The translations under genes were made by a program, and so were the position numbers. A DNA stretch of 64,000 nt from a virus (lineage: Duplodnaviria; Heunggongvirae; Uroviricota; Caudoviricetes), in the IMG/VR virus record IMGVR_UViG_2880389630_000005, one strand, 5' to 3'. Numbering within the stretch: the stretch's first letter is position 1; every line of letters starts with the position of its first letter. The notes under the pieces were generated by a model that was not told the origin of the DNA, did not search any database, and saw nothing but the letters and a program-made list of their open reading frames with translations. Positions 4,252 to 40,718 of this stretch are shown here, in pieces.

Positions 4252-4329
4252 ATGAGCAGAATTATCACCACCACCGTGTATACACTGCATGAGCTATCCT
4301 CCACCGCACAGGAAAAAGCCCGCGACTGG
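4252..4329 (+). pseudogene. 5' fragment of an island gene (~205 aa when restored) disrupted by the Mu-like prophage
   Basis: ATG 4252 with RBS aaggg; frame continues exactly into 40148-40718 when the prophage and one repeat copy are removed. Confidence 0.7.
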
Positions 4330-4490
4330 TGTGGGGTAGTGATCAATTCTGGGCGGAGTTAGTGCAGCCTGGTAGAACCAGCAAGCCTTGTGTGGCGCGG
4401 GGTGTGGTGATTTAGTGTGATTCTGGGCGGATTTGTGAGAAATGACCAAAAACGCTTTTTTTGCGCTTTTTTCTGGGCGCTTTTGATCTG
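4330..4490 (+). repeat. Prophage left end with three direct copies of TTCTGGGCG (candidate transposase-binding sites)
   Basis: TTCTGGGCGG at 4347 and 4421, TTCTGGGCGC at 4471; same motif inverted at right end. Confidence 0.55.
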
Positions 4491-4640
4491 GTTCTGCTAC
4501 AAACTTAACGGGTTTTAAATGCTTTTAAAAAAGTGTTTTATCCTTACCCGTTTTCCTCAATTTGTTCTCATCTGTGTGTTCGGTTTTGTTGTGGTTATTG
4601 CTGATTAGCTAACAGCACACGCCCCGCCAAAACGAGGCGC

Positions 4641-5288
4641 TTATGCTGATTTCTTGTTTACAGGCTTAGTTTCTTGCTCCGGTGTGACGGGAACGCGATC
4701 ACCTGGTGTTCCAGCACAGAAAATAGCTTTGGCGCGGCGCAAAATCTCTTTGTCATTTTCCTCATCGCCAGCTAATGCCATGCAAACAGCGTCTTTAAGC
4801 GATTGCCTGATGTTCAGGCTTTGAATGGCCTTCCTTTGTTCCTCAAGTTCGCTATCGGCTTGCTTGGTTTGCCTGGTGGGTTGCTGTAGGCGTTCCAGGA
4901 CTCCTTTGATGCCAATACAACACAGCATATCAATAAGACGCTCTCTATCTTCTGGAGTAGCTCGCCTTAGTATTTCATCGACAATACTTGTGTTTGGGCG
5001 GTTAACGTCTTCTGTAGGCACCTTTTTTTCTATTATTGGATCATGCCTGCTCTCACCGTAGACCAACCATTCCAGTGATACATTCTCTAATTTTGCTATC
5101 GTAGCGACCACATTTAGGCCGGGAGTGGTGCCTTTCTCAAAGTAGTTATTTATGGTCGAGTACGGCAACCCCCAGTCTGAGGTGGCTTTACGCAGACTCC
5201 TAGTGCCAACCAGTTGCTTGATTCTGTCCTGAATGCTTTCTTTTCTATTCTGAGAAAAGGAAAAATCATCGGCGGTTTGTTTACTCAT
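4641..5288 (-). CDS. Prophage repressor (Mu c-like position), HTH DNA-binding
   Basis: 215 aa from ATG 5288 with RBS gaggaa; divergent from ner; N-terminal HTH-like segment. Confidence 0.7.
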   Translation of the reverse strand: MSKQTADDFSFSQNRKESIQDRIKQLVGTRSLRKATSDWGLPYSTINNYFEKGTTPGLNVVATIAKLENVSLEWLVYGESRHDPIIEKKVPTEDVNRPNTSIVDEILRRATPEDRERLIDMLCCIGIKGVLERLQQPTRQTKQADSELEEQRKAIQSLNIRQSLKDAVCMALAGDEENDKEILRRAKAIFCAGTPGDRVPVTPEQETKPVNKKSA

Positions 5289-5407
5289 TTTCTTTCCTCG
5301 CAATCTATTGATTTACAATGTATTTCTGCAAAAAGACTTTCTTTTCACCAAAGAAAGAAAAGAAAGCTTGTAATTTTCTATTTGTGGATCAATACTTATA
5401 TCCGAAG

Positions 5408-5429
5408 GGATAACACGGCGGTGTTATCC
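5408..5429. promoter_or_regulatory. Candidate operator: 9-bp inverted repeat GGATAACAC-N4-GTGTTATCC plus adjacent GGATAAC half-sites
   Basis: Palindrome in the c-ner intergenic region; extra half-site at 5434-5440. Confidence 0.5.
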
Positions 5430-5456
5430 GCACGGATAACTTTTAAGGGTAACCTA

Positions 5457-5693
5457 ATGATGGTTAGAAATGAAGTAATGAACAAAGACTGGCACCGCGA
5501 GTACATCGTTGCCGCTGTGCACACCAAAGGTTTTACATTGCGTGAACTTTCTGAACGCGCTGGTCTAAAAAAAGACTCTTTAAAAAATGCACTGTATCGC
5601 TCATGCCCTAAATATGAACGCATCATAGCCGATGCTATTGGTGTGGAACCTGCGGAGATCTGGCCAAGCCGGTATGCCAGTAAGGCGGCTTAA
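5457..5693 (+). CDS. ner: Ner-like DNA-binding protein
   Basis: 78 aa; resembles Mu Ner (…KDWHREYI…EIWPSRY…); immediately upstream of transposase. Confidence 0.8.
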   Translation: MMVRNEVMNKDWHREYIVAAVHTKGFTLRELSERAGLKKDSLKNALYRSCPKYERIIADAIGVEPAEIWPSRYASKAA

Positions 5694-7735
5694 TGTTTTA
5701 TTCAGCCAATGAGCTGGCCGGTCTTCCTGGTTTGCCCGGTACAGTTCAGGGGGTGCGCTGGACGCTCAATCGGATCACAGAGACGCACCCGGAATGGAAG
5801 CGCAAGCGTGAAGGCACCAAAGCATTCGAGTATCACATCGACTGCCTGCCCGCTGAAGCGCAGAAAGTTTTACGTAAGCGCCTGACCCATCAGGTCCTGG
5901 AAGATACGCAACTGCCCGCCGTGGTTGAGCAGAAGGCAGTTAAAAACGTCGCCGTTCGCGATGAACTGGAGGTGATGGTCAAATGCCCGGAACTGGCATT
6001 ACGCGAAGTCCAGGCACTGACTGACAAGCAAAAGGCCATCGCTGATGCGCGGATATTGCTGGCTACTGAAGTGCATAAACTGCGCGAATACGCCGGAATG
6101 ACCAGGAAGGCCGCGTTAAAGCACATCGTTGATGGTGTGCGCATGGGGGCGTTACCTGACCGCATTATCGAAGCAGCGAATACTGCAAATGCACGTCAGG
6201 GAAAGCGAACCGGTGTCAGCACCGGCAGCCTGGATAGCTGGTACTCCAGCTGGGTGATGGCGCGCGGTGATGCCAATCAGTTACTGGCGTTACTGGCTCC
6301 CGGTCATCATAAGGGAACACCGTGGGAGCAGGTCTGGTGGTTGAGCGATTTCTTTATGTTCTATCGCTCATGGAAGCGCCCGACCGTTGAATACGCGTAT
6401 CGCGAGTTTTCAGCCTGGTGGCATGAAAAACACGCGAATGATGCGGGAATGCTGGCAGTACTGCCTTCAGTTCACGCAGTCAGACGGGTGTTAAGCAGCG
6501 TCCCGGTGATTGTTAAAGAGCGTTTCCGCTCCACCGGTTCAGCCTGGCGTTCGCTCAATCCCTTTGTGCGGCGCGACTGGAGCACATTACCGGTTAATGC
6601 GGTATGGGTCGGGGATGGTCACTGTATGAAAATGACCGCGTTTAACCCACTGACCGGCAATATTTTCCGGCCAGAAGTGACGCTGGTTATGGATGCGGGT
6701 CAACGCTTTGTTGTGGGCTGGTCACTGTCCCTGTCGGAGAACGTGATAGCCGTTGCTGATGCGTTACGTTACGGCATGGCGCAGCACGGGATACCGCTGA
6801 TTTATTACTCCGATAACGGGGGCGGCGAAAAAAACCGGGTGCTTGACGCCGATATTACCGGGATTTTGCCCCGGCTGGGTGTGGAGCATCACACGGGGAT
6901 ACCAGGTAACCCACAGGGGCGCGGGGTGATTGAAAGGCTTAACAAGGAAATTCCCCGGGATGTGGCCCTGAGTTTCCAGACGTACTGCTCAAAGGGAGCA
7001 GACAAGGAAACCGTAATGATGCAGCAACGGATTATGCAGTCAGCCATTAAGGCCACCCACAAAGGGAAAGAACTGACAAAACGGCAGGTTAAGGCGAGGG
7101 ATGAAGTCCCCACCTTTGAGCAACTGATGGCAGCCATAGAACTGGAAGTCAGACGCTATAACAACCGGCCACACAGCAGCCTTCCTCGCAAAGAGGATGG
7201 CGAGCATTACAGCCCGGCAGCGTATCGCCGGAAACTGATAAAAGAGCAGAATGTTGAAATTGATTTCTTGTCGCCGGAAGAACTGCATGAAATGTTCAGA
7301 CCGGAGGTGACGCGCAAAACATTTCGCGGGGAAATTCAGTTATTCAACAATATTTATTACTCGTATGAGCTGGCCGCAGAGCACGGGAATGAAGTCAGGG
7401 TCAGTTACGATATTCATGATGCAAACAGCGTCATTGTCCGGCGGGCTGATGGCTCTTATATCTGCGATGCCATCTGGAACGGTAACAAGGTTGATGCCTT
7501 CGCTAAACCAGTTATCGAGCAAAAACTGGAGAAACGCGTCAGAGGCCGCATTGCACGGGCCACGCAGAAAATCGAAGAGGCTAAACGCGAGCTTACCCCG
7601 GCTATTACGCAGAAGCCTGACTTTAATCTGGGATATGGACTGGAACGCCCGGAGAAAAAGGAAAAAGAAGAACTTTATTTATTCGCATCTGAACGCGAAC
7701 GCAATTTAAAGAAAAACGGCACAAACAACCGTTAA
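5693..7735 (+). CDS. Mu A-like DDE transposase
   Basis: 680 aa; start overlaps ner stop (TAATG); size and position as Mu A. Confidence 0.9.
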   Translation: MFYSANELAGLPGLPGTVQGVRWTLNRITETHPEWKRKREGTKAFEYHIDCLPAEAQKVLRKRLTHQVLEDTQLPAVVEQKAVKNVAVRDELEVMVKCPELALREVQALTDKQKAIADARILLATEVHKLREYAGMTRKAALKHIVDGVRMGALPDRIIEAANTANARQGKRTGVSTGSLDSWYSSWVMARGDANQLLALLAPGHHKGTPWEQVWWLSDFFMFYRSWKRPTVEYAYREFSAWWHEKHANDAGMLAVLPSVHAVRRVLSSVPVIVKERFRSTGSAWRSLNPFVRRDWSTLPVNAVWVGDGHCMKMTAFNPLTGNIFRPEVTLVMDAGQRFVVGWSLSLSENVIAVADALRYGMAQHGIPLIYYSDNGGGEKNRVLDADITGILPRLGVEHHTGIPGNPQGRGVIERLNKEIPRDVALSFQTYCSKGADKETVMMQQRIMQSAIKATHKGKELTKRQVKARDEVPTFEQLMAAIELEVRRYNNRPHSSLPRKEDGEHYSPAAYRRKLIKEQNVEIDFLSPEELHEMFRPEVTRKTFRGEIQLFNNIYYSYELAAEHGNEVRVSYDIHDANSVIVRRADGSYICDAIWNGNKVDAFAKPVIEQKLEKRVRGRIARATQKIEEAKRELTPAITQKPDFNLGYGLERPEKKEKEELYLFASERERNLKKNGTNNR

Positions 7736-7753
7736 TTTAAAAGGTATTTAATT

Positions 7754-8647
7754 ATGAGTTTAATTACGCAATTAAATGACGTAATGGCCCGTCGCGGCTA
7801 TACGCAGACCCACGTCGCCCGTGCCATTGGTCGTAGCAGCGCCGTTATCAGCCAGTATTTACAGGGTAAATATCAGGGCGATATGGCTGATATTGAAGAA
7901 CGCATTTCTACCTTTGTGACCCGTGAGCGGGAAAAGGAAAACAGCCGCCGTATTAAAGCAAAGTTTGTGACCACCGGTATGGCTGCCAAAGGACTGGAGG
8001 TGCTGGCCTACGCTCACCTGGAATGTGAAATCTGTGTGCTGTATGGCGCAGCAGGTCTTGGCAAAACAATGATTCTGCGTGAATACGCCGCCAGAAACCG
8101 GGATGCGCTCCTGATTGAGGCTGACCCGGGCTATACAGCCAGAACACTGCTTGAGGAGTTGTGCCGCCAGCTGGGGGTAAAGGTTCGCGGCAACATTCAC
8201 GAACTGATAGATGCCTGTGTGCGCGAACTGCGTGATTCCGGTCGTCTGCTAATGGTGGACGAGGCTGAACTGCTCCCCTATCGCGCACTGGAGGTTCTGC
8301 GCCGTCTGCATGACAAAGCGGGTATCGGGGTTGTTCTGGCGGGTATGCCTCGTCTTCTGATTAACCTCAAGGGGCGTCGTGGTGAGTTCGCCCAGTTATA
8401 CAGCCGTGTGGCGCTGGCGCTTAACCTGGGCGATACGCTGGCGCAGGAAGATTTTAACCAGATAGCCACCGGGCTGATGCCGGAAGCAGCAGAACCGGAA
8501 ATCAGCGAGGCGCTTTATACACGTTCGCTGGGTAATGCCCGCCGCCTGTTCAAACTGGCGCGTGGTGTGTACCGGATTTGTGATATCAGCGATGCGCCGG
8601 TCAGTGTGCAGGCCATTGATAAATTCGCGGAAATGTTAATTCACTGA
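7754..8647 (+). CDS. Mu B-like AAA+ transposition/target-DNA activator
   Basis: 297 aa; Walker A GAAGLGKT; follows transposase. Confidence 0.9.
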   Translation: MSLITQLNDVMARRGYTQTHVARAIGRSSAVISQYLQGKYQGDMADIEERISTFVTREREKENSRRIKAKFVTTGMAAKGLEVLAYAHLECEICVLYGAAGLGKTMILREYAARNRDALLIEADPGYTARTLLEELCRQLGVKVRGNIHELIDACVRELRDSGRLLMVDEAELLPYRALEVLRRLHDKAGIGVVLAGMPRLLINLKGRRGEFAQLYSRVALALNLGDTLAQEDFNQIATGLMPEAAEPEISEALYTRSLGNARRLFKLARGVYRICDISDAPVSVQAIDKFAEMLIH

Positions 8648-8886
8648 TGGAGAACAAGACGATGGACAAGCAGACCATTAACGCCGTCCGTTCCCGTGCC
8701 CGTGTGGCCATCCACACCACCGGTGGTCGTGTAACGGGACAGCATCACCGTTTACCTGTGGTTTATGCCTGCCCACCTGTGGGTGGTCCTGTATGGCCGG
8801 TAACGGAAATCATCCAGACATTCAGCGGCCTGCGCCGCGTGGTGAAAACATCCTGTATCGACGGCTGCACCGTCGTATGGCAATGA
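8647..8886 (+). CDS. Hypothetical early protein
   Basis: 79 aa; ATG overlaps B stop (TGATG). Confidence 0.35.
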   Translation: MENKTMDKQTINAVRSRARVAIHTTGGRVTGQHHRLPVVYACPPVGGPVWPVTEIIQTFSGLRRVVKTSCIDGCTVVWQ

Positions 8887-8898
8887 GAGGAAATCAGA

Positions 8899-9114
8899 AT
8901 GGCGGTTAAGTTAGAAGTAATTATCTATACCGATGAAAAAGGCTGTGTTTTAACCCAGACCACGGGGAGTTATTCGAAGGACGGAGCTTCCGAAAAGGAG
9001 TTTCAGGTGGCAACAAGATTACATGATGCTATCAAGGAAACGCTCAGAAATGACTATAACGGCGTGAATCTTTTTTCTGAAAATGTTGCGCCTCGCGCAC
9101 ATAACACACATTAA
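8899..9114 (+). CDS. Hypothetical early protein
   Basis: 71 aa; RBS agaggaaa upstream. Confidence 0.45.
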   Translation: MAVKLEVIIYTDEKGCVLTQTTGSYSKDGASEKEFQVATRLHDAIKETLRNDYNGVNLFSENVAPRAHNTH

Positions 9115-9143
9115 TCTGTAAATATCACTGAGGTAATTTAATT

Positions 9144-9788
9144 ATGACGACTGAAAATAAAGTTAAGCAATACACGAAAACTCAAGCGCCTGAAGGTTAC
9201 TGGGTGGATGCCCGTGGCGTAATGACACCTGAAAGCCTTATCAAAGATATTGACCGCGACCGCGAGCAGCTGGTCGGTGAGCTTGTGGAGATGGTGATTG
9301 CTGCCTCCGCCTCACTGCGGGAACTGAAACTGCGTGCGTTTGGTGATATCCAGGCATTTATTGACCTGTCGGCGGAGAAATACGGTGCTGTGAAAGGCGG
9401 CAAAAAAGGGAATATCACGCTTTACAGCTTTGACGGGCGTTACAAGATTCAGCGCGCCATGCAGGACCGTATCGCGTTTGATGAACGCATTCAGACCGCG
9501 AAGGCGCTGATTGACGACTGTCTGGCTGACTGGACGGAAGGTGCGCGCCCTGAAATTAAAGCCATCATCAGTGAGGCATTCAGCACGGACAAGGAAGGCA
9601 ACATCAACACCGGGCGCGTTCTGGCCCTGCGTCGCCTCGAAATTGAGGACGAACGCTGGAATAACGCCATGTCGCTGATTGGTGAAGCCGTCCAGGTGAT
9701 TGGCAGCAAGAGCTATATTCGTGTGTATGAGCGCGTTGGTGATTCTGATGAATACCGCGCAATCCCTCTTGATATTGCAGGGGTTTAA
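9144..9788 (+). CDS. Conserved Mu-like early protein (possibly DUF3164-like)
   Basis: 214 aa; RBS gagg upstream; family assignment tentative, from memory. Confidence 0.6.
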   Translation: MTTENKVKQYTKTQAPEGYWVDARGVMTPESLIKDIDRDREQLVGELVEMVIAASASLRELKLRAFGDIQAFIDLSAEKYGAVKGGKKGNITLYSFDGRYKIQRAMQDRIAFDERIQTAKALIDDCLADWTEGARPEIKAIISEAFSTDKEGNINTGRVLALRRLEIEDERWNNAMSLIGEAVQVIGSKSYIRVYERVGDSDEYRAIPLDIAGV

Positions 9789-9789
9789 T

Positions 9790-10023
9790 ATGCATCAGAA
9801 TATCAAAGAGTACAGAGCCGGAAATAGTTGCGCGGCGTATTCGCTGGGCGCGTCCAGAGCAGAACAACGCGGCGATTATGACGAGGCAGAAAAACTGTGG
9901 CGCAAGGCAGCGCAAAGCCCGTGTAGCACCCTGCGCCGCATCTGGGCTGAACATCGTGCGGAGTTCTGCGCTAACGCTCACCTGAAGGGCTGGAGGCCAC
10001 GCCATGAATGCGAAGAACTTTAA
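9790..10023 (+). CDS. Hypothetical early protein
   Basis: 77 aa from ATG 9790 directly after upstream stop. Confidence 0.4.
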   Translation: MHQNIKEYRAGNSCAAYSLGASRAEQRGDYDEAEKLWRKAAQSPCSTLRRIWAEHRAEFCANAHLKGWRPRHECEEL

Positions 10024-10195
10024 TAAGCAGTATCCGGTAGGGGCTCGCTTCATGCACACTGCACATCCGGCGTTGCGTGGTGGTCGTGTGGTGAAAACCG
10101 TTTCACCTGCCAGAGATTTTAAATGTGGTTGTGTGGTTGAAATTAATGTCGAGCCTTATTTCGTTAAAGTCGAAACACTGAAAGCAGCGCATTAA
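10004..10195 (+). CDS. Hypothetical early protein
   Basis: 63 aa; RBS ggagg upstream. Confidence 0.4.
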   Translation: MNAKNFNKQYPVGARFMHTAHPALRGGRVVKTVSPARDFKCGCVVEINVEPYFVKVETLKAAH

Positions 10196-10269
10196 TTTAA
10201 TTCAATTTTAATTGTTATTTAAAACAGGCGTAAACCCGCCGGGGCTGGCTTACGCCTGAATCTAGAGAA

Positions 10270-10662
10270 ATGAAAATGAGTGTTACCGTTATCAATGAAA
10301 TGCTTGGGCGTACATTTAAAGAAGTAGTTAAGAATGAAAACGATGAACTTGTTTTTCGTGGTGATTATTCCCGGGGAGTATGGGGAACCGTGTTTACATT
10401 TTTCCACTTTCAGGAGGGCTGCGAAAAAGTCTGGATTGAGGACATCGTCGGAGACCTTGACGACCTGAAAGATGAACCGCTGACAGAGGCTGAAGTGGTT
10501 ACCGAAGAATGTGATGTTGGGGAAGGTCATCAGACATGGAGTTTCTTTAAGTTCGGCACATCAAAAGGCTGTGTAGTCGTCAGATGGTGCGGTGAGAGCG
10601 AGGGCTTTTATTCTGAGTGCGTTTCACTGAAGCGGGAATTAACTGACGTCTTCGATTTTTAA
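10270..10662 (+). CDS. Hypothetical acidic early protein
   Basis: 130 aa; strongly acidic (many D/E); no recognisable motif. Confidence 0.5.
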   Translation: MKMSVTVINEMLGRTFKEVVKNENDELVFRGDYSRGVWGTVFTFFHFQEGCEKVWIEDIVGDLDDLKDEPLTEAEVVTEECDVGEGHQTWSFFKFGTSKGCVVVRWCGESEGFYSECVSLKRELTDVFDF

Positions 10663-10725
10663 CTCTGACTTCGTTTTTTTATGGCGCAGGTAAACAGGTC
10701 TGCGCCTGAATAAGAGAAATTCATT

Positions 10726-11454
10726 ATGGAAAATAAAAGCAAATACATTGCCAAAATTAAAAAGCTGTTACGCCTTGCCAAAGGAACATCAAGCCCGGAA
10801 GAAGCCGCTAACGCTATTGCAAAAGCCCAGGCTTATATGCGCCAGCATGGTATCAGCGAAAACGACGCTGAATTGTTCGACATTCAGGAAGCTGCCAGCG
10901 CGGGTGCACCGAGTGATGCCAGTACGCCGCCGCTTTATATGCACATCCTGTGTGACCTGGTCTGTAAAGCCTTCGGCGTCGAGTGTTACATCTCCGGTGA
11001 GTACCGGGCTTCTGGTTTACTCAAACGTTACGTGCGTTTTTATGGCCCTGACAGCCGCCCGGAAATCGCGGCTTACGCGTTTGATGTGCTTTCCCGTCAG
11101 ATGATGGCTGAACGCAAGAAATATCAGGATAAACACTGCAAACGTTGCGGCCCGTCCACGCGGGTGGCCCGTGGCGACCAGTTCTGCGAAGGCTGGGTCT
11201 TTGGTGCCCGTGATGTCATTGCGGTGTATGACGTCTCCCCGGAAGAAAAAAGCCGCCTTGAGCTTTACAGAAAGAACCTGCACAGCACTAAAGGACTGCG
11301 CGACGGGGATATGCGTACGGCTAAAGCGTGCCGGGGTGCAGAGTTTGCCGCTACTGCCGGTTTTATCGCCGGGAAAAACGCCAGGCTGCATCAGGGGGTT
11401 AATGGTCAGAGCAACAGACCGCTGGCACTGGGAGGGTGTAACGATGGCTTTTAA
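10726..11454 (+). CDS. DUF2786-like phage protein
   Basis: 242 aa; N-terminal IAKIKKLLRLAKGTSSPEEAANAIAKAQAYMRQH matches the DUF2786 signature (from memory). Confidence 0.65.
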   Translation: MENKSKYIAKIKKLLRLAKGTSSPEEAANAIAKAQAYMRQHGISENDAELFDIQEAASAGAPSDASTPPLYMHILCDLVCKAFGVECYISGEYRASGLLKRYVRFYGPDSRPEIAAYAFDVLSRQMMAERKKYQDKHCKRCGPSTRVARGDQFCEGWVFGARDVIAVYDVSPEEKSRLELYRKNLHSTKGLRDGDMRTAKACRGAEFAATAGFIAGKNARLHQGVNGQSNRPLALGGCNDGF

Positions 11455-11671
11455 ACTTCTTAGTGTTACCGAAGCAATATACCAGCCTCCTGGAGAACGC
11501 CACGAATACAGGATGAATGACGGTAGCGCGGTGGTTGAGTTCCCCGGATATCCGGGGGCTTCCCGGTGGCGGTTCTACGACAGTGTGGGACGTCGGATTA
11601 TTAAAAGAACCGTGCACAACAATATGAAGGCTGCCGTAGAACGTCATAAGAGAAGGTTTAACTGCAAATGA
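11444..11671 (+). CDS. Hypothetical early protein
   Basis: 75 aa; RBS ggaggg upstream of ATG 11444. Confidence 0.4.
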   Translation: MAFKLLSVTEAIYQPPGERHEYRMNDGSAVVEFPGYPGASRWRFYDSVGRRIIKRTVHNNMKAAVERHKRRFNCK

Positions 11672-13255: not shown

Positions 13256-13360
13256 GGCCCGGCATGAAATTTTCTGAATCACGGAGCAACAACACGATGA
13301 AAGCCATCACCGTAACTCGACGTTCCTGATTTCGCGAGTTGTTTAAACAGTAATCAAATG

Positions 13361-14531: not shown

Positions 14532-14543
14532 GACTTAGTTTAG

Positions 14544-32314: not shown

Positions 32315-33663
32315 TGGGCTGGGCTGAAAACCTGCAAAACGCTTCCTTTCGTGGCGTGCAGTTTGAGGTGCTGAATACTGACGAACAAATCAGCCGCGAC
32401 CATGCGGTCTATGAATACCCGTTTGTTGACGGGGCGGATTTGCACGACCTCGGACGCAAGGCGCGACCGTTCCGCATGACGGCGTTCCTGTGGGGCGATG
32501 ACTATGAATATAAACTCGGGAAACTGACCGCCGCCCTGGATGAAGGCGGCGATGGTGAACTGATTCATCCGGTTTATGGCTCTGTGCCGTCGGTGATTGT
32601 GACCGGCTACAACATCCGCCATGACGCAGAAAGCCCGGACAGCTGCACCATTGACATGAGTTTTCTGGAAAACCGCACCGGTAGCGCGTTGTTCAGCACC
32701 CCGTTACCGGAGCTGTTCGCGCAACAGTTGTTTGATGAACTGGACACTTTACAGGCGCGGTTAAGTGATTTTTTTGATGCCGTTACTGCACCTTTAAATA
32801 CCGTTAACGGCATGATTAAAAAAGCCCAGACAGTGCGTGCCACACTGGTGAATACCCTGCTGTCGTTCAAAAGTGATTTTGTCTCCACTGTCGATAATAT
32901 CGTGTCACTGGCAGGCGAACCCGGAAAATTTATCAATGAACTGGCAGAGGTGCTGGAAATCCACACATCAGATGTCGGGCAACCGGTGCAGGTTCTGCAA
33001 CGTGTTGATTCTGCCACCCGGACCGGGTTGGCAGGAGAGACGACCGTCGCCAGTTCTGCGACAGTGATGAACTGCTGGAATAAGGTCATCACTGATATGG
33101 ATGAATTTGTTGCGTTGCCTGTTACCCTGGTCAGTGGCGATAAAGTAGCGGAGGTGGCACTTCCTGCGGATGCCTCGCCAGACGATGTGCAGGATGTGAA
33201 AGCAGTTTACGCAACACAGGCCGCATCTGAACTGGCCAGTGTTGCAATGGCGATACTGGTTGATGATGCGCAGTCAGAACAGCTTATACCGGCGGATATC
33301 GGGCGACTGGTCGGGGATGTGCGCACCCGCTTACAGGCTGCCATCACGCTGTTCCGTGAACGCTATGAAGGCGAACGCGAACGGATAACCGAAACCGCAT
33401 CACCGCTGGGGCTGATGTACCCGGAAATCATTCAGAGCATGAAAAACGTGGCGGCAACCGTGCAGGATGTCGGCCTGCTGGTTCTGTCACGCCGCCCACC
33501 GCTGACGCAGAAACAGGTGCAGGCGGACAGCTGTCTGCTGTTGCTGGCGTGGCAGTGGTACGGCGATTACAGTCGTGCGGCAGAACTGCAACGCCTGAAC
33601 CCGCAGTTACGTGACCCGAACAACATAACCGCCGGGGTGGTAATTAATGCCTACGCCAAATAA
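32314..33663 (+). CDS. DNA circularisation protein (Mu N-like)
   Basis: 449 aa; position after tape measure; Mu N-like N-terminus. Confidence 0.8.
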   Translation: MGWAENLQNASFRGVQFEVLNTDEQISRDHAVYEYPFVDGADLHDLGRKARPFRMTAFLWGDDYEYKLGKLTAALDEGGDGELIHPVYGSVPSVIVTGYNIRHDAESPDSCTIDMSFLENRTGSALFSTPLPELFAQQLFDELDTLQARLSDFFDAVTAPLNTVNGMIKKAQTVRATLVNTLLSFKSDFVSTVDNIVSLAGEPGKFINELAEVLEIHTSDVGQPVQVLQRVDSATRTGLAGETTVASSATVMNCWNKVITDMDEFVALPVTLVSGDKVAEVALPADASPDDVQDVKAVYATQAASELASVAMAILVDDAQSEQLIPADIGRLVGDVRTRLQAAITLFRERYEGERERITETASPLGLMYPEIIQSMKNVAATVQDVGLLVLSRRPPLTQKQVQADSCLLLLAWQWYGDYSRAAELQRLNPQLRDPNNITAGVVINAYAK

Positions 33664-34858
33664 CGAAGACAAAATTAGCCTGGTCATTGCCGGAAGGTCG
33701 CATTCTGACTGGAGCAGTTATCGTATTGACAGCGATTTCCTGAAAGCTGCCGACGGCTGGCAGCTTCAGCTGGGGCTGCCTGAAAAGGTGTTCCCGGCGG
33801 ATATCGTCCGGGGCGCACAAATCCGGTTGCAGGTGGGAGATGAAACGGTGCTCAGTGGGCGCATAGACAGCGTGCGCCGTAGTGTGTCCCGTCAGAGCTG
33901 CACGCTGGCCCTGTCCGGGCGTGATGATGCCGCCATCCTGGTGGACTGTGCCGCGCCGGTGTTCAGCGCCAACCAGCTGACGCTGGACGAGGTCATCGAC
34001 AGGATAGTCAGACCACTGGGGATACAGCGCATCCGTATACAGGCGTCCGGTGTGTCACGTAATGACAAAGTTGTTATTGAGCCGGGGATGCGTGCGTGGG
34101 ATGCACTGGCCAAAGCTGCCGCCGGTCGCGGCTTATGGCCGTGGTTTGAGCCTGACGGGACGCTGGTTGTGGGTGGCCCTGACTACACCACCACGCCGGT
34201 GGATACGCTGATTCTGAAGCTGAACGGCACCGGGAACAACGTGATGGAGCTGGACGATACCCGATCCATTAACGGCTGTTTCTCCGAACTGACGGTGCTG
34301 GCCCAGAGCCACGCCCGCCGCGCAGACAGCAAGAAACAGGTGGCCGTGGTGCCGCTGGATATCTGGAACGAGGACGGCAGCGTGCGCACATTATCCGGGC
34401 AGGACAGCGGTAATACGGACTGTGGTCAGACAGGCATTCATAACATGAAAGCCGTGGCCACCGACCCCACCGTGGATTATTACCGCCCGCAGATTATCAC
34501 CCAGGGCGACACCAGCAATCTGGAGCAGGTGAGCTGGCGCGCAAAAAAAATGATGAGTGATGCCCGCCTGTCGGGGCTGGATATCGTCGCACTGGTTGCA
34601 GGTCATCGCACGGCAGATGGTGTTCTGTGGCAGCCCGGCCAGCGGGTGCGGATTGTCAGCGAACTCCACGGCATTGATGCCATCTTTTTCCTGATGGGGC
34701 GTGAGTTCAGCGGAGGCCGGAACGGGCAGACAACCCGGCTTCGCTTTAAGGAGGACGGCGTGTGGATACCTGACGCCTTCCCGCGCGAGAAGAAACGCCA
34801 TCACCGCAGGGGCAAAAAGAAAAAAGAGGTCGCCATTGTTAAGGTCTGGGAGAAATGA
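33647..34858 (+). CDS. Tail/baseplate hub protein (Mu P-like)
   Basis: 403 aa; position. Confidence 0.8.
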   Translation: MPTPNNEDKISLVIAGRSHSDWSSYRIDSDFLKAADGWQLQLGLPEKVFPADIVRGAQIRLQVGDETVLSGRIDSVRRSVSRQSCTLALSGRDDAAILVDCAAPVFSANQLTLDEVIDRIVRPLGIQRIRIQASGVSRNDKVVIEPGMRAWDALAKAAAGRGLWPWFEPDGTLVVGGPDYTTTPVDTLILKLNGTGNNVMELDDTRSINGCFSELTVLAQSHARRADSKKQVAVVPLDIWNEDGSVRTLSGQDSGNTDCGQTGIHNMKAVATDPTVDYYRPQIITQGDTSNLEQVSWRAKKMMSDARLSGLDIVALVAGHRTADGVLWQPGQRVRIVSELHGIDAIFFLMGREFSGGRNGQTTRLRFKEDGVWIPDAFPREKKRHHRRGKKKKEVAIVKVWEK

Positions 34859-35508
34859 TGTGGGACAAGGTTAATCAGCGCGTACAGCAGGCACTGGCCG
34901 CCGTTCGCCAGGCATTCAGGGTGGTGATCGGTACGGTGGACAGTTCGACCAAAGTACAGCTGCTTCAGCTGAACGGGCTGGCAGGCGAACAGCTGGATGG
35001 TGCGGAGTATTTTCAGCATTACGGCCTCACCACATCCCCGCCGCCCGGCTCAATGGGTATTGCCGTTCCGCTGAATGGCAATACCTCCCATACCGTCATC
35101 GTGGCCACAGAGCACGGCGCATATCGCCTGACGGAACTGAAACCCGGCGAGGTGGCCCTGTATACCGACGAAGGCGCGAAAATCGTATTGAAGCGCGGGC
35201 GGATTATTGAAACAGAATGTGACGTTTACCGGGTGAAATGCAAACGCTATGAGGTTGAGGCAGAGGAGAACGCCGCATTCACGACACCGTTACTGACGGC
35301 CAGCGATAAGCTGACGGTGGAAGGTAAAATCACCGGCAACGGTGGCATGGCCATCCGTGGCGGCAAGGAATACGCCGCCACTTTTGAAGGCAACATCAAC
35401 CATGTGGGTGGTGTGCTTACCTCCGTTGATGTCACCATTAATGGCATTAAAATCGGAACACACAAACACCCAACCCCACACGGCATGTCTGACACGCCGG
35501 TTAATTAA
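34855..35508 (+). CDS. Baseplate assembly protein V-like (spike)
   Basis: 217 aa; gpV-like C-terminus. Confidence 0.8.
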   Translation: MMWDKVNQRVQQALAAVRQAFRVVIGTVDSSTKVQLLQLNGLAGEQLDGAEYFQHYGLTTSPPPGSMGIAVPLNGNTSHTVIVATEHGAYRLTELKPGEVALYTDEGAKIVLKRGRIIETECDVYRVKCKRYEVEAEENAAFTTPLLTASDKLTVEGKITGNGGMAIRGGKEYAATFEGNINHVGGVLTSVDVTINGIKIGTHKHPTPHGMSDTPVN

Positions 35509-35561
35509 GTGCTGAACACCCTCACCTGATTCTGACCTGTCCATGCTGCCAGACTGGCGGC

Positions 35562-35912
35562 ATGGACCAGACGATTTCACCTGCAACCGGCGACTACGAA
35601 CGCCGCCGGATTTATACACTCCATAACGCGGTTTATCTGCGACTGGCGACACCGCTTGGCAGTTACTGGGCGGATGCGTTGCTGGGGTCACGCCTGCACG
35701 AACTGAAGCGGGAAAAAGACGTTTCCCGTGTTCACAGGCTGGCGGCGCAGTATGCCAGCCAGGCACTTCAGCCCCTGCTTGATGACGGGCGGGCAAAATC
35801 CATTACTGTTGACACGAAACCGGGTCAGCGCGGCTGGCTGTTGCTGTTAATCACCGTCACGGATAACGCGGGCACACCGCAGACATTTGAACACCCTGTG
35901 AGGATTATGTAA
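35562..35912 (+). CDS. Baseplate protein (Mu gp46-like)
   Basis: 116 aa; position. Confidence 0.7.
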   Translation: MDQTISPATGDYERRRIYTLHNAVYLRLATPLGSYWADALLGSRLHELKREKDVSRVHRLAAQYASQALQPLLDDGRAKSITVDTKPGQRGWLLLLITVTDNAGTPQTFEHPVRIM

Positions 35913-36991
35913 TGCCGTTTCCTGTTCCGGGCGTTGCTGAAAACACAGAACGCCAGCTACGTGATATCGCTAACGCCCTGCCGGGAGAAACCATCGACAC
36001 CAGCGCTGACAGCGATTACCGCATTCGTGCAAATGCCGTATCCGGTGTGGCTGACGGGCTTTATATGCATCAGGGGTGGATACTCCGTCAGGTGTTTCCT
36101 GACACGGCAGACCCTGAATATCTGGAGCTGCACTGCCGCACGCGCAATGTTTTTCGTAAAAAAGCGACCGCCTCATCCGGTCCGGTGGTGATTACCGGCA
36201 CTCCCGGTAAGACACTGCCAGCCGGTGCGGAAATTCGTGGTGAAGGTGTCAGCGTGTCCACCACAGCAGACTGCACCATCGGCCACGAAGGCAGCGCAGA
36301 GGTGACGGTAAAAAGCACTGCCACGGGGGCACTGACGAATGCATCCACGACGCAGACGGCAACGCTGGTCAGTCCGCCGGAAGGCATCAACAGCACGGTG
36401 ACGATTAAATCCCTGACCGGTGGAACAGACAGGGAAAGCAACGCCGACCTGCTGGCGCGTTATCTGGACATTCTGCGCAGGCCGCCCGCTGGCGGTAATA
36501 AATATGATTACAAACGCTGGGCGCTGGAAGTGGATGGCGTTACCTCGGCATATGTGGAGCCATTACGTCGTGGACTGGGGACGGTTGATGTGGCCATTAC
36601 GTCAGCCAATGACCTTCCCTCGCAGGAACTGATTAATGCCGTGCTGGCACATATTGAGGAAGTCTGCCCGGTCACAGCAAAGGACACGATGGTACTGGCC
36701 CCGACGAAAAAAGCCGTTGATTTCGTTGTCCGGGTAAAAACCAGCGGCCTGACCGTTGAGCAGATAAAACCACAGATAACTGAAGTTATCACGGATTTTA
36801 TGAACCGACTGGAGCCGGGGCAGGAATTAATTATTTCACAACTGGAAACTCAGATTTCATTAATTTCTGGCGTCAGTGACCGGCGGATTATTATGCCGTC
36901 AGATAATGTAAAAGCAGTTGTCAATGAATCCACATGGGAGTGGCTGCGTCCGGGGAGTATTGATATCCAGCCATTTCCCCGGGAGAGTTAA
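35912..36991 (+). CDS. Baseplate J-like protein (Mu gp47-like)
   Basis: 359 aa; position and size. Confidence 0.85.
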   Translation: MPFPVPGVAENTERQLRDIANALPGETIDTSADSDYRIRANAVSGVADGLYMHQGWILRQVFPDTADPEYLELHCRTRNVFRKKATASSGPVVITGTPGKTLPAGAEIRGEGVSVSTTADCTIGHEGSAEVTVKSTATGALTNASTTQTATLVSPPEGINSTVTIKSLTGGTDRESNADLLARYLDILRRPPAGGNKYDYKRWALEVDGVTSAYVEPLRRGLGTVDVAITSANDLPSQELINAVLAHIEEVCPVTAKDTMVLAPTKKAVDFVVRVKTSGLTVEQIKPQITEVITDFMNRLEPGQELIISQLETQISLISGVSDRRIIMPSDNVKAVVNESTWEWLRPGSIDIQPFPRES

Positions 36992-36994
36992 TAC

Positions 36995-37567
36995 ATGAAT
37001 ACGGTTGATTTATTTCGTGCCATGTTACCACCGGTCAGCTATGACCCGAACGGGAAATATATTTCAACAGAACTGAACGCAGAAGCAGCCATTATGGATG
37101 AAGTAAAAGCGTCAGCTGCACGAGTGCTTGCATCTGTCACACCATTTTACGCATCCATGACACTGTCTGACTGGGAACGAGTGTATGAAGTAATACCCCG
37201 CGATGGTGCCACACAGCAGGAACGCCGAGAAAATATTCTTATAAAGATGGCTGCAACTGGTGGGTTATCTATCCCTTATTTTAAACAACTTGCAGCCAGC
37301 CTCGGGTACACCATAACAATTACTGAACTCCATCCATTTAGAACGGGGGTAAACCGATGTGGTGATCGTCTCTATATAACAGATGCCCGATGGATTTGGC
37401 AGGTTAATGTCACAGGAAGCAAAACGCCAGCTTACAGATTCAGAACCGGAGTATCTGCTGCCGGGGAACCGTTACTTTCCTTTGGTGCCCCTGTACTGGA
37501 AGAAACATTTAAAGAGCTTAAACCCGCTTTTACTTATTGCCATTTCACATATAAGGAGGAGCAGTAA
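36995..37567 (+). CDS. Tail protein (Mu gp48-like)
   Basis: 190 aa; position. Confidence 0.75.
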
Positions 37568-39945
37568 TGCAAAATCTGATGCCCCCGATAAATACACCGG
37601 ATCAATTGTTTCATGATGGTGACCCCACTCAGGGGATAGAAGGAACCATCGTAACTGCTGATTATTTAAACAATCAGCAGGGGGCAATCCGTGATTTACA
37701 GCAGGAACTCCTTAATGTTCTTGGTAGTGTACATATTCAACCTGCCCCCCAAAAAACGGATCAGCTACTTACCGCGCTTCGTGCGCTGCTGTTAAGCCGC
37801 AAGAATCCGTTTGGCGATATCAAATCGGATGGCACGGTAGAACGCGCTCTTGAAAATCTGGGGTTACAGGATGTAAAAGCTGGTTCATTGAACAATCTGT
37901 ACACTAACCATTCCCGTAGTGTCTTAATGGAATTGCCGTTATTATTCCCGGACTACGATACGGTGCTGGCTGCTCAGTCTGGTGCGGAATATATGTATCC
38001 ACAGGGATTTGTGGTGACAGGAGAAAAAATCTATCTGAGTTATACCGTTGAGCCAAAGCAGACACGGAACGTTATAGTTCAGTACACAACATCCGGCGAA
38101 TATGAGGGATATTATTATGTCGATAATGGAGGTCGTGGCGTTGTCAGCGAAGGCCTTGTGGTGACAACGGATTACGGTGGATTACGTTTGTTCATGTCAG
38201 GAGAAAATGGATTACTGAAACAGTTTTCGCTTGATGGGGCAATTTCTGGTTCAGTATTGCCGTTAATTGATGAACATGATGTCGGTGTTTACAACCAGTT
38301 CAGCTATCGTAAAAACCGCTGGGTGGTTGAACAGTCAGCGCCGGAAGTGGGAGGCCTGATCACCCGCACAGTATTTGCGGTGTATGATTTTCAGTTTCGT
38401 CGGACAGGGACATTCACATTACCGTTGCATGATTCCGGATATATCACGGAAAGCACAGACAGCTATGCAAGACGCTTCACAAAACGTCAGGGAATTGCTG
38501 TGGGAGACGATTATATTGCCTGTTCTTATGGTGGCTATTTTAATACCGGGGCATCAGCCGGATTTAACCAGTTTCAGGGGGTTAAGGTCTTTTCTCCGGA
38601 TGGAGTAAAGCAGCAGGAATCCATTCTTCATCCCCAAAAAATGATAGATGTGCTTACCAGGCAGGGTTTTACACCTTCGCGCATTGAGAACGAAGGAATT
38701 TGTATTTCTGACGACGGCGGCAGTATATATTCGCTTTATATCTTTCTGGAGCGTGGGTTACCACAGGCTTATCAGAAAGGAATTGTTCTGATGAAAGAGT
38801 TCAGTACTGGCAGAGATGCTATTGATTTTCGTCAGGCAGCCTGGTTGTACACGGGGTTTGATGTGTCTCATGCCAGTATTGGAACATTTCCCCGTAGTGC
38901 CCAGGGGTTGGTAAACCCGGTGTTGGGGACGGTATTCACATCCCTGTCTGAAATTCTGGCATATATGCGTTCTGTGAGTCAGAAATGGTTTTGTCTGCAT
39001 ACAACCACGACACCGATTAAAGATCTGAGTGGAAATGACATTCCTGCTGACAATTATGTGTTCATCAAGAATGCTAATAACCAGACATTCTATATAACGC
39101 AGGAGTCAGCTGAAGGTGGAATAAAATATAAAGCTGTCACTACAGACAGCGGAGAATATGGTTTTCAGCGACAAAGAGAGGCAATCTGGTCCAATGTTAT
39201 CACCATCGCACAAAAGAGCGATGGTGAGGATCAGTTTAATCGTATTATCGCTGCCTCGAAAAGTGGTTCGGGTAAAAATCAGGATAAAATACTGGTAGTT
39301 GACCAACAGGCATCAGAGGGGAATAACACGCTGGTAATTGGCGGTGGTTCATCTGTGTTCAGGTCAGCGACAGTGATTGATTTTGCAACGAATCAGGATG
39401 CAAATGCCACAGGAGGAGAAAAGAGATGGCGCATAGATTCATCAGGAAATCTCCGCCCTTATACAGATAATACGTATTCGATCGGTTATGCCTCATGGCG
39501 ACCCGCACAGGTTTATTCAGCTACGGGAAGTATCAGTACATCAGACCGGACTCATAAACAGGACGAAACAATTCTGTCGGATGCAGAAAAAAGGGTTGCC
39601 AGAAAGCTGCTCGGGTATATCTGTCGGTTCCGTTTCAGGGATGCAGTGTCCAGCAAAGGGAACGCAGCCAGATGGCATGTAGGAGTGATTGCTCAGGACG
39701 TACAGAAGGTCTTCTCCGAGGAAGGGCTGGACGCTTTTGATTACGGTATTTTGTGTCGTGATGAATATCCGGCGGAATATGAAGTGGTTTACGGGACTCG
39801 TATGGAGCTTGGTTCTGACGGACTCCTTACAATGGAAGAATACGATACCGGAGAGCGCAAGCTGGTCAGGGAGGCTGGTGAAATAATGTCTGTAAGGAAT
39901 GATGAGCTGCATTATTTCATGCTGGCATCGCTGTCTGGCCAGTGA
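37567..39945 (+). CDS. Tail fibre protein with C-terminal intramolecular chaperone (peptidase S74-like) domain
   Basis: 792 aa; C-terminal SDRTHKQDE...[11 protein letters not shown] matches the self-cleaving chaperone signature; last gene before prophage right end. Confidence 0.8.
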
Positions 39946-40060
39946 ATAATATTAATGTAAGGAGCGATATAAGCTCCTTACATCATGCATTTTATGCTGC
40001 GATTATGCGTTCTCCTGTTGTTTGTTGCTGAGAGTGAAACACCGGAAACATAACTAATAA

Positions 40061-40147
40061 GTTAGCGCCCAATTCTGGGCTTTTTGGCTGAGATCTCCCC
40101 GCCCAGAATTGGGCGCTAATTAGCCCAGAAAAAAACGCGAAGTTACA
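40061..40147 (+). repeat. Prophage right end: 19-bp inverted repeat TTAGCGCCCAATTCTGGGC/GCCCAGAATTGGGCGCTAA plus inverted TTCTGGGC motif copies
   Basis: Perfect inverted repeat at 40061-40080 and 40101-40119; CCCAGAA at 40123-40130. Confidence 0.55.
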
Positions 40148-40718
40148 CTGGTACCGTCAGCATCATGCTGACAGCAACTGGTATGAAAACGTGTATGAGG
40201 ACTTCAGGGCGGTCTGTGGCATTTTCGGAATTGACCTCCGCCAGCGCGTTTTCCGGCTCAGCAACGGCAGGTTTATGGAAGAGGCGTGCATCTGGTTCAG
40301 CGGATTCTGCAGCCAGGGGGACGGAGCCTGTTTTGAAGGACGCTGGCACTGGCAGCCAGCAACAGCCAGAAGGCTCCGGGAGTATGCCACACAGGACCAT
40401 GAACTCCATCGTATCGCGGATGCCCTGCAGGCGGTGCAGAAACGTAACTTCTGGCAACTGCAGGCTGAAATCCACCACCGGGGACGTTACTGCCATCCGT
40501 ACAGCATGGATATCACTGTTACCCGGAACAGTCCGACTGGTCAGGCTATGACAGCCGATGCGGAAGCCGCTGTCAGCGAAGCCCTGCGCGACCTGGCCTT
40601 CTGGTTGTACCGTCAGCTGGAAAACGAGTACGACAGGCTGACCTCTGATGCCGCTGTGGATGAGGCCCTTCTCATCAACGAATACACCTTCACCGAAGCC
40701 GGTCTGCGCGCCGGCTGA
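40148..40718 (+). pseudogene. 3' fragment of the island gene disrupted by the Mu-like prophage
   Basis: Frame of 40191-40718 extends upstream to the junction and joins 4252-4329 in frame; stop TGA at 40716-40718. Confidence 0.7.

What the first reader, a model, noticed from the sequence alone, without database searches (positions are those of the whole stretch)
4252..40718. Island gene split by the Mu-like prophage; reading frame restored exactly across the junction
An ORF starts at ATG 4252 (MSRIITTTVYTLHELSSTAQEKARDW...) and runs into the prophage end. The frame of ORF 40191-40718 extends upstream to the right junction. Removing 4330-40147 and one copy of the shared ACTGGT/CTGG repeat joins the two parts in frame into a ~205-aa protein. 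K-12 CP4-44 has no such gene between yeeT and cbeA as far as I recall, so the gene is strain-specific and of unknown function.
Basis: seen in the sequence. Interest (0 to 1): 0.5.

Follow-up and report, generated by a model that had tools for sequence, protein, structure and literature searches.

The report
Island gene split by Mu-like prophage
A 35.8-kb Mu-like transposable prophage has recently jumped into a common but uncharacterised 214-codon gene of an E. coli genomic island, which is an ordinary insertional knock-out; a sister strain still has the gene intact.

Summary
An ORF starting at ATG 4252 is cut after codon 26 by a 35,818-bp Mu-like prophage (4330-40147, ends TG...CA). It resumes at 40152. 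Removing the prophage and one copy of the 4-bp duplication CTGG gives an in-frame 214-aa ORF (not ~205).

The rebuilt 1,049-bp site is 100% identical to many E. coli chromosomes, where the gene is annotated WP_000086752.1 "hypothetical protein" between yeeT and cbeA. Strain S5 is an isogenic empty site: 100% identical over 1.9 kb on the left and 14.5 kb on the right. Neither junction occurs in any of 5,426 complete E. coli genomes. The same phage, with 1 SNP, sits in a different gene in strains S13 and R4. The insertion is therefore recent and private.

The gene is not strain-specific. About 36% of complete E. coli genomes carry it, and K-12 keeps a deletion remnant. Its family is very large, spans islands, conjugative plasmids and phages, and has no Pfam or NCBIfam model and no structural relative. 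NCBI's "antitoxin" label is unsupported.

Two side results came up. This phage lineage makes 4-bp target duplications, not Mu's 5 bp. A P22-like prophage interrupts sbcB at about 46427.

Verdict: a real feature, well explained and ordinary.

The parts
4012..4233 (+). yeeT (DUF987), the gene upstream of the split gene
   Evidence: Pfam PF06174, E=1.5e-40. Annotated yeeT at the matching position in JJ1887 and S5.
4252..4329 (+). 5' fragment of the split gene 'X' (codons 1-26 of WP_000086752.1). As it stands, the ORF reads on into the phage and stops at 4360-4362, giving a 36-aa product.
   Evidence: 100% identical to JJ1887 L001 6323-6400 and to S5.
4326..4329 (.). Left copy of the 4-bp target-site duplication CTGG
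   Evidence: Six independent insertions of this phage lineage all carry a perfect 4-bp repeat abutting TG...CA.
4330..40147 (+). Mu-like transposable prophage, 35,818 bp, with TG...CA termini
   Evidence: The Pfam hits and the S13 annotation show a CI-type repressor, MuA-like transposase, MuB-like ATPase, DUF3164, Mor, gpT head protein, DNA circularisation protein, tail sheath and baseplate genes. It differs by 1 mismatch from the S13 copy, which sits at another locus.
4330..4480 (+). Left phage end with three direct TTCTGGGCG repeats (4347, 4421, 4471), which are putative transposase-binding sites
   Evidence: 8 hits in the window against 1.27 expected, and 6 of the 8 lie within 150 bp of the prophage termini.
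4641..5303 (-). Phage repressor (CI-type HTH), transcribed divergently from the early operon
   Evidence: Pfam Phage_CI_repr, E=1.4e-5. The equivalent S13 CDS is annotated as a helix-turn-helix domain-containing protein.
5457..5693 (+). Small HTH gene in the position where Mu has ner (Mu gene order from memory), first gene of the early operon
   Evidence: Mapped from S13 CDS L002 14128-14364, a helix-turn-helix protein. The two copies are identical apart from 1 SNP elsewhere. The gene was not scanned separately here.
5693..7735 (+). MuA-type DDE transposase (680 aa)
   Evidence: Pfam HTH_Tnp_Mu_1, rve and Mu-transpos_C. The best isolated-phage relatives are only 41-49% identical: VW-6B, Klebsiella ST405-OXA48phi1.1, Yersinia Tongde and SuMu.
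7754..8647 (+). MuB-like AAA+ transposition ATPase
   Evidence: Pfam AAA_22 and TniB.
37567..39945 (+). Tail fibre (792 aa, with an S74 chaperone domain), the last phage gene
40060..40147 (+). Right phage end carrying TTCTGGGCK repeats: 40100-40108 and 40122-40130 inverted relative to the left end, and 40073-40081 direct
40148..40151 (.). Right copy of the 4-bp target-site duplication CTGG
40152..40718 (+). 3' fragment of gene X (codons 27-214 plus stop). The only in-frame start left is GTG 40191, which would give 175 aa.
   Evidence: 100% identical to JJ1887 and S5.
40734..41102 (+). cbeA (YeeU-family type IV antitoxin), starting 16 nt after the X stop codon
   Evidence: Pfam PF06154, E=7e-53. 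Annotation.
41191..41565 (+). cbtA toxin, followed by yeeW at 41562-41756
   Evidence: Pfam PF06755 and PF25638.

Best explanation
A complete, apparently functional Mu-like transposable phage integrated by DDE transposition into the coding sequence of a 214-codon conserved hypothetical gene. That gene (WP_000086752.1, called X here) lies between yeeT and cbeA in the CP4-44-equivalent island of an E. coli chromosome whose flanks are identical to ST131 genomes. The transposase joined the phage's TG...CA ends to target strands cut 4 bp apart, and repair of the gaps duplicated CTGG. The break falls exactly between codons 26 (W) and 27 (Y). What remains is a 36-residue stub and a promoter-less, start-less 188-codon tail, so the gene is knocked out. 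The 35.8-kb insert also separates cbeA-cbtA-yeeW from the tightly packed upstream genes. The event is recent and private to this strain. The insertion, its boundaries, the duplication and the intact allele are all shown directly. Loss of function and any polar effect on cbeA and cbtA are inferred. X itself is most likely an accessory 'early-entry or establishment' protein of mobile elements and not an antitoxin; that part is a low-confidence inference from gene context only.
For: - Frame restoration: only the join that removes the prophage plus 4 bp restores the frame.
- Intact allele: the rebuilt site is 100% identical over 1,049 nt to many genomes. The intact CDS is annotated in JJ1887 and S5.
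- Flank identity: the flanks are 100% identical to JJ1887 over 4,330 and 6,280 bp. They are 100% identical to S5 over 1,903 and 14,504 bp, including the neighbouring sbcB::P22-like prophage junction.
- Private event: neither junction is present in any of 5,426 complete genomes.
- Mu-type gene set and clustered end repeats.
- Mobility: the same phage, with 1 mismatch in 35,818 bp, lies in a TonB-dependent receptor gene in S13. About 36 genomes carry >=80% of it at different sites, for example in eutC in E2348/69 and in mhpT in CFS3292.
- Duplication length: six independent sites have perfect 4-bp duplications.
- Loss of function: residues invariant in close homologues (T8, V9, Y10, E14, L15, A23, R24, W26, Y27, W36) lie in or next to the part cut off.
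- X context: with ArdB/KlcA-type antirestriction, RadC, DUF987 and the CbeA/CbtA pair in enterobacterial islands. Between ParB_N and strawberry-notch genes, with ArdC nearby, on alphaproteobacterial conjugative plasmids that show no CbeA or CbtA within about 7 kb on either side. Inside the terminal repeats of giant Caulobacter phages.
Confidence: 0.95

Rival explanations
1. The juxtaposition is an assembly artefact or chimera, and no prophage really sits inside the gene.
For: No other complete genome has these junctions, so the arrangement has no independent confirmation.
Against: Both junctions fall at exactly the same phage terminal nucleotides as in six other copies. They are flanked by a perfect 4-bp duplication, as every other copy is. 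A misjoin would not create a target duplication or restore the frame to the base. The phage is full length and colinear with the S13 copy.
Confidence: 0.01
2. The insertion made a canonical Mu-type 5-bp duplication (ACTGG or CTGGT), and one phage terminus is a base shorter than it appears.
For: In the window the shared string is 6 nt (ACTGGT), so a 5-bp reading is possible here. It is also possible in E2348/69 and SCAID WND1. Mu makes 5 bp and B3 makes 6 bp (PMC8705779).
Against: At the S13/AVS0151 site, in CFS3292 and in Ec55, no register gives a 5-bp repeat, while a 4-bp repeat is perfect. The terminal T and A are constant in all copies and so belong to the phage.
Confidence: 0.04
3. X is a true antitoxin or a third component of the CbeA/CbtA module, as NCBI's name 'antitoxin of toxin-antitoxin stability system' implies. 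Its disruption would then perturb toxin control.
For: X lies 16 nt upstream of cbeA in E. coli. It lies between cbeA and cbtA in Klebsiella michiganensis. Rare 342-343-aa predicted proteins join X to a CbeA domain.
Against: X shows no similarity to CbeA (hhalign probability 0.07%). No Pfam or NCBIfam model supports the name. K-12 keeps cbeA-cbtA without X. X homologues on alphaproteobacterial plasmids and ICE-like regions show no CbeA or CbtA in the flanks examined. X also occurs in lytic phage genomes. The window strain carries cbtA with X disrupted.
Confidence: 0.1
4. The insertion was selected, for example for loss of X or for altered cbeA/cbtA expression, and is not a neutral hit by a randomly transposing phage.
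For: This phage lineage is found in functional genes whose loss can be adaptive. One example is the TonB-dependent receptor gene hit in S13, R4 and AVS0151.
Against: Insertion sites differ in every lineage examined. The X insertion is seen only once. K-12 lacks X, so loss of X has happened before and is evidently tolerated.
Confidence: 0.08

Closest known systems
Bacteriophage Mu (the 'mutator' phage) and insertional gene inactivation by transposable phages
   Same: A roughly 36-kb myovirus-type genome with a leftward repressor. The rightward early operon has an HTH gene, a MuA-type DDE transposase and a MuB-type ATPase. It also has Mor, gpT-type head, portal, DNA-circularisation (N-like) and baseplate genes. 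The termini are TG...CA with clustered repeats. Integration is near-random, with a short target duplication that knocks out host genes.
   Different: It is only a distant relative. There is almost no nucleotide match to any isolated phage. Mu is not among the top 25 transposase hits, and the best hit is 49% identical. The target duplication is 4 bp, not 5 bp.
The prophage inserted in eutC of EPEC E2348/69, and its relatives in about 36 complete E. coli genomes
   Same: The same phage lineage: 85-98% nucleotide identity over most of the genome in the blastn HSPs, identical termini and a 4-bp duplication.
   Different: The insertion site differs (eutC versus gene X). The accessory early genes and the tail-fibre module also differ.
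K-12 cryptic prophage CP4-44 (yeeS-yeeT-cbeA-cbtA-yeeW)
   Same: The same chromosomal locus, next to tmaR-yeeA-sbmC-dacD-sbcB, and the same gene order.
   Different: K-12 lacks X. Its 73-bp yeeT-cbeA spacer keeps only the ATG and first 8 codons of X, plus the last few bases before cbeA.
CbeA/YeeU type IV antitoxin family (PF06154), the likely origin of X's database name
   Same: Genomic adjacency only.
   Different: No sequence or profile similarity. X is 214 aa with a different predicted alpha/beta architecture.
PHROG family phrog_5162 (function unknown)
   Same: X matches it over its full length, E=5e-37. Homologues occur in 69 phage genomes.
   Different: The family has no assigned function, so membership does not explain what X does.

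Membership tests
Mu-like transposable phages | MuA-type DDE transposase (Mu DNA-binding domain, rve core and Mu C-terminal domain) | tested here: met
   Pfam HTH_Tnp_Mu_1 1.7e-10, rve 7.9e-5 and Mu-transpos_C 6e-17 on ORF 5693-7735.
Mu-like transposable phages | MuB-like AAA+ ATPase immediately downstream of the transposase | tested here: met
   ORF 7754-8647 hits AAA_22 at 1.8e-22 and TniB at 7e-7.
Mu-like transposable phages | Termini 5'-TG...CA-3' with several transposase-binding repeats at each end | tested here: met
   The ends TGTGGGG... and ...GTTACA are identical in 7 copies. The TTCTGGGCK repeats are clustered at both ends. Binding itself was not tested.
Mu-like transposable phages | Different insertion site in each host lineage, each flanked by a short target duplication | tested here: met
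   Six independent sites: gene X, a TonB-dependent receptor gene, eutC, mhpT, between major-capsid and prohead-protease gene fragments of another prophage, and ypdF. Each has a perfect 4-bp repeat.
Mu-like transposable phages | Mu-type morphogenesis genes (gpT head, portal DUF935, gpF-like, N-like DNA circularisation protein, contractile tail) | tested here: met
   Pfam Mu-like_gpT 3e-94 and DNA_circ_N 7e-28, plus the PGAP names on the S13 copy.
Phage Mu in the strict sense (Mu, D108) | 5-bp target-site duplication | tested here: not met
   A 4-bp repeat fits all six sites, and a 5-bp repeat is impossible at three of them.
Phage Mu in the strict sense (Mu, D108) | Close sequence relationship to Mu | tested here: not met
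   No nucleotide match above 2% coverage in 50,697 phage records. The top transposase hits are non-Mu phages at <=49% identity.
CbeA/YeeU antitoxin family (for gene X) | Match to PF06154 or profile similarity to CbeA | tested here: not met
   No Pfam hit for X or for 118 homologues. hhalign probability against CbeA is 0.07%.
Toxin-antitoxin antitoxin, in the functional sense (for gene X) | Neutralises a cognate toxin and is always paired with a toxin gene | tested here: inconclusive
   X is paired with cbtA and cbeA in Enterobacteriaceae. No toxin partner appears in the flanks examined in alphaproteobacterial elements or in phage genomes. Neutralisation cannot be tested with these tools.
Known anti-restriction or anti-defence proteins (ArdA, ArdB/KlcA, ArdC and others) (for gene X) | Sequence or fold similarity to a characterised member | tested here: not met

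The most novel reading that the evidence does not exclude
Gene X may be the founding member of a very large, unrecognised family of early-entry or establishment proteins of mobile elements, possibly counter-defence proteins. The family has at least 6,235 clusters at 50% identity and no Pfam model. It has a confidently predicted fold with no PDB relative and a near-invariant SGFxSQGDGAxFxG loop plus His141. It occurs on conjugative plasmids, ICE-like islands and phages. The window strain and strain S5 form a natural isogenic knock-out and wild-type pair on which to test this. Separately, this phage lineage may be the first Mu-type transposition system found to use a 4-bp stagger.
Probability: 0.3. 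Interest if true: 0.6.

Novelty: new member of a known kind. Interest (0 to 1): 0.25.

Why it matters
In itself the finding matters little. Transposable phages are named for exactly this kind of insertional mutation, and the gene hit is non-essential, since K-12 lacks it. It has three uses.

1. It documents that this Mu-like lineage is active now in a clinically important E. coli background. Its flanks are identical to ST131 genomes. Sister isolates carry the same phage, with 1 SNP, in a TonB-dependent receptor gene, so the phage is generating gene knock-outs in circulating strains.
2. It supplies a natural isogenic mutant and wild-type pair for a widespread, mis-annotated protein family of unknown function that sits beside anti-restriction genes and the CbtA/CbeA toxin pair.
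3. It shows that this lineage makes a 4-bp target duplication. Prophage-boundary callers that assume 5 or 6 bp would place the ends wrongly by a base.

Tried and rejected
- Pfam, NCBIfam and PADLOC scans of X gave no hits. A Pfam scan of 118 diverse homologues gave only sporadic single hits at E > 1e-3.
- PDB sequence and profile searches with two alignments found nothing below E = 0.15.
- Foldseek against the PDB found nothing below E = 0.1. Foldseek against BFVD returned only uncharacterised phage proteins. The afdb50 library was unavailable.
- Literature searches for the protein accession, for NCBI's product name, and for the island gene set found nothing describing X. Searches for the E2348/69 Mu-like prophage found nothing on its ends.
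- An exact-sequence look-up of the 175-aa truncated product, meant to find other assemblies with this insertion, returned nothing on record.
- A megablast of the prophage against isolated phages gave at most 2% coverage, so no named phage can be assigned.
- I considered and rejected a 5-bp duplication, an assembly artefact, and homology between X and CbeA.


Full report
**Observation**

The ATG at 4252 opens MSRIITTTVYTLHELSSTAQEKARDW. After codon 26 (TGG, 4327-4329) the DNA becomes TGTGGGGTAGTGATCAATTCTGGGCGG..., and the frame ends at TAG 4360-4362. At the other side the element ends ...CGCGAAGTTACA at 40147. The frame of ORF 40191-40718 is open upstream through that junction. I tested four possible joins. 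Only joining 4329 to 40152 gives an uninterrupted ORF, of 214 aa plus a stop. That join removes 35,822 bp: the 35,818-bp element plus 4 bp.

**Is it real?**

- The rebuilt 1,049-nt empty site matches many E. coli chromosomes at 100% identity over its full length. 416 records are at >=99% identity, and 1,927 of 5,426 complete genomes cover >=80% of it.
- In ST131 strain JJ1887 a 645-nt CDS sits exactly there, between yeeT and cbeA. It is WP_000086752.1, annotated 'hypothetical protein'.
- The window's flanks are 100% identical to JJ1887 over 4,330 bp on the left and 6,280 bp on the right. The two alignments overlap by the 6 nt ACTGGT.
- Strain S5 (Gothenburg, NZ_CP107137.1) is a better match. 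It is 100% identical over 1,903 bp on the left and 14,504 bp on the right, including the junction of a second prophage in sbcB, and it has X intact. S5 is in effect the isogenic empty site.
- Neither junction is present in any of the 5,426 complete genomes. The insertion is private to the window's strain as far as these data go.

**The inserted element**

It is a Mu-like transposable phage.
- Gene content:
  - At the left end, a CI-type repressor read leftwards (4641-5303).
  - A small HTH gene (5457-5693), a MuA-type transposase (5693-7735; Mu DNA-binding domain, rve core and Mu C-terminal domain) and a MuB-like AAA+ ATPase (7754-8647).
  - DUF3164, Mor, holins and a GH108 lysin, a DNA methyltransferase and TerL.
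  - A DUF935 portal, a head-morphogenesis protein, a protease and a gpT major head protein.
  - Tail sheath, tape measure, an N-like DNA circularisation protein, baseplate genes and a 792-aa tail fibre.
- The 9-mer TTCTGGGCK occurs 8 times in the window against 1.27 expected. Six of those lie within 150 bp of the two termini: three direct at the left end, and two inverted plus one direct at the right end. This fits multiple transposase-binding sites.
- It is not a close relative of Mu. There is almost no nucleotide match to 50,697 phage records. The transposase is at best 49% identical to those of isolated phages: Pseudomonas VW-6B, Klebsiella ST405-OXA48phi1.1, Yersinia Tongde, Mannheimia 3927AP2 and Haemophilus SuMu.
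- The same lineage is present in about 36 complete E. coli genomes at different sites. It interrupts eutC in EPEC E2348/69 and mhpT in CFS3292.
- The copy in strains S13 and R4, which come from the same Gothenburg submission as S5, lies in a TonB-dependent receptor gene next to yeiG. The S13 copy differs from the window's copy by one mismatch in 35,818 bp. The phage has therefore moved, or newly infected, very recently in closely related bacteria.

**Target duplication**

I compared both junctions of seven copies representing six independent insertions.
- All copies have the same termini, TGTGGGGTAG...AAGTTACA.
- All six insertions have a perfect 4-bp direct repeat abutting the termini: CTGG (window), CATT, CACT, ATTC, ACTT and CGCT.
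- At three sites (S13/AVS0151, CFS3292 and Ec55) no register allows a 5-bp repeat.
- The window's shared ACTGGT is therefore the 4-bp duplication CTGG plus the phage's own terminal A and T.
- Published descriptions give 5 bp for Mu and 6 bp for B3 (PMC8705779). I found no report of 4 bp, but my literature search was shallow.

**The interrupted gene (X)**

*Distribution*
- X is not strain-specific. About 1,950 of 5,426 complete E. coli genomes match the part of X next to the insertion point.
- A homology search finds 2,461 proteins. A profile search finds 6,235 clusters at 50% identity, of which 1,089 have E <= 1e-30. Hosts include Salmonella, Klebsiella, Citrobacter, Tistrella and Methylosinus.
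- K-12 CP4-44 has only 73 bp between yeeT and cbeA. That spacer still begins with ATGAGCAGAATTATCGCCACTACC, the first 8 codons of X. It ends like the X-cbeA junction. K-12 therefore lost X by an internal deletion.

*Family and structure*
- X has no Pfam, NCBIfam or PADLOC match, and neither do 118 diverse homologues. It matches phrog_5162, a family of unknown function.
- AlphaFold2 gives a confident alpha/beta model (pLDDT 90, pTM 0.82).
- Across 118 representatives at 36-58% identity to X, the near-invariant positions are E14, L15, the loop G77-F-x-x-Q-G-D-G-A-x-F-x-G89, H141, W177, Y179, N202, F206 and G210.

*The 'antitoxin' name*
- NCBI's frequent name is 'antitoxin of toxin-antitoxin stability system', and it has no support. 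X shows no similarity to CbeA (hhalign probability 0.07%).
- X occurs without CbeA or CbtA in the flanks examined on alphaproteobacterial conjugative plasmids and chromosomal elements. There it sits in a conserved block: ParB_N, a 137-aa ORF, X, a strawberry-notch helicase, a toprim protein and a YAcAr protein. ArdC lies nearby in two of the three loci examined.
- X also occurs in 69 phage genomes. In giant Caulobacter phages it lies inside the terminal repeats.
- In Enterobacteriaceae X is always close to the CbeA/CbtA pair, but its position varies. The order is yeeT-X-cbeA-cbtA in E. coli and yeeT-cbeA-X-cbtA in Klebsiella michiganensis. Rare 342-343-aa predicted proteins join X to a CbeA domain.

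*Best guess at function*

At low confidence, X is an accessory protein that mobile elements express on entering a new host. This matches the company it keeps: ArdB/KlcA-type antirestriction, ArdC, RadC and ParB. Iyer et al. 2017 discuss such genes as conflict genes of phages and conjugative elements (PMC5512222).

**Consequences**

- The insertion leaves a 36-residue stub and a 188-codon tail. The only in-frame start left in the tail is GTG 40191.
- Ten residues that are invariant among close homologues lie in the first 36 positions. Loss of function is therefore very likely, though it is inferred.
- The island genes from DUF932 to yeeW are packed on one strand, with short spacers and no consensus promoter. 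The insert may therefore also cut cbeA-cbtA-yeeW off from upstream transcription. This rests only on a weak consensus scan.

**Verdict**

Biologically this is a textbook insertional mutation by a transposable phage, so it is of low surprise. The by-products are worth keeping on file: the 4-bp duplication of this Mu-like lineage, evidence that the phage is active now in an E. coli background with ST131-identical flanks, and a natural knock-out of a huge, unnamed, mis-annotated protein family.

Noticed in passing
window 4326-4329 and 40148-40151; L002, L003, L004/L005, L009-L014: This Mu-like phage lineage makes 4-bp target-site duplications: CTGG, CATT, CACT, ATTC, ACTT and CGCT at six independent sites. 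A 5-bp repeat is impossible at three of them. Mu makes 5 bp and B3 makes 6 bp. I found no report of 4 bp, but my literature search was shallow.
   Followed up: yes
window 46378-64000: A second prophage, P22-like, interrupts sbcB 49 nt into the gene. Identity to JJ1887 ends at 46426. It encodes a tailspike with a head-binding domain, an antirepressor, injection proteins, a stabilisation protein and a P22 coat protein. The same junction is present in 556 complete E. coli genomes. Sf101-type phages are known to integrate in sbcB (from memory).
   Followed up: partly
window 55811-56629: An IS3-family transposase ORF (rve, HTH_21) sits among the P22-like injection genes, next to the Inj_translocase ORF at 56505-57461. 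It is probably an IS insertion inside that prophage.
   Followed up: no
L008 (K-12 MG1655) 3040-3112: The 73-bp yeeT-cbeA spacer of K-12 CP4-44 is a deletion remnant of gene X. It keeps the ATG and the first 8 codons, joined to the last bases before cbeA.
   Followed up: yes
L015/L016 (Klebsiella michiganensis) 7610-8996: In Klebsiella the X homologue lies between cbeA and cbtA, not upstream of cbeA. Some assemblies predict 342-343-aa proteins that join X to a CbeA domain (P0002, P0006-P0013).
   Followed up: partly
L002 (E. coli S13) 12018-13001 and 48821-49671; L009/L010 (AVS0151): The same phage (1 SNP in S13) disrupts a TonB-dependent receptor gene next to yeiG in S13, R4 and AVS0151. In K-12 cirA occupies that position (from memory). 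Loss of that receptor could affect susceptibility to siderophore-antibiotic conjugates and colicins. AVS0151 has a second match to the phage elsewhere in its chromosome.
   Followed up: no
L006, L007, L017: Alphaproteobacterial conjugative plasmids and chromosomal elements share a conserved block: ParB_N (about 710 aa), an unnamed 137-aa ORF whose end overlaps the X start by 8 nt, X, a strawberry-notch helicase, a toprim protein and a YAcAr protein. An ArdC gene lies a few kb upstream in L006 and L017. The 137-aa partner also has no Pfam family.
   Followed up: partly
window 1-747: The window opens inside an IS21-like ISEc12 element (istB). In JJ1887 this element splits a hypothetical island gene. 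The arrangement is identical in the ST131 genomes examined.
   Followed up: no
H227-H237 (Caulobacter phages CcrPW, CcrBL9 and CcrSC): X homologues in giant Caulobacter phages lie inside the terminal repeats, so each genome has two copies. This could mean very early expression after infection, if terminal-repeat DNA enters the cell first as in T5-like phages (from memory).
   Followed up: no
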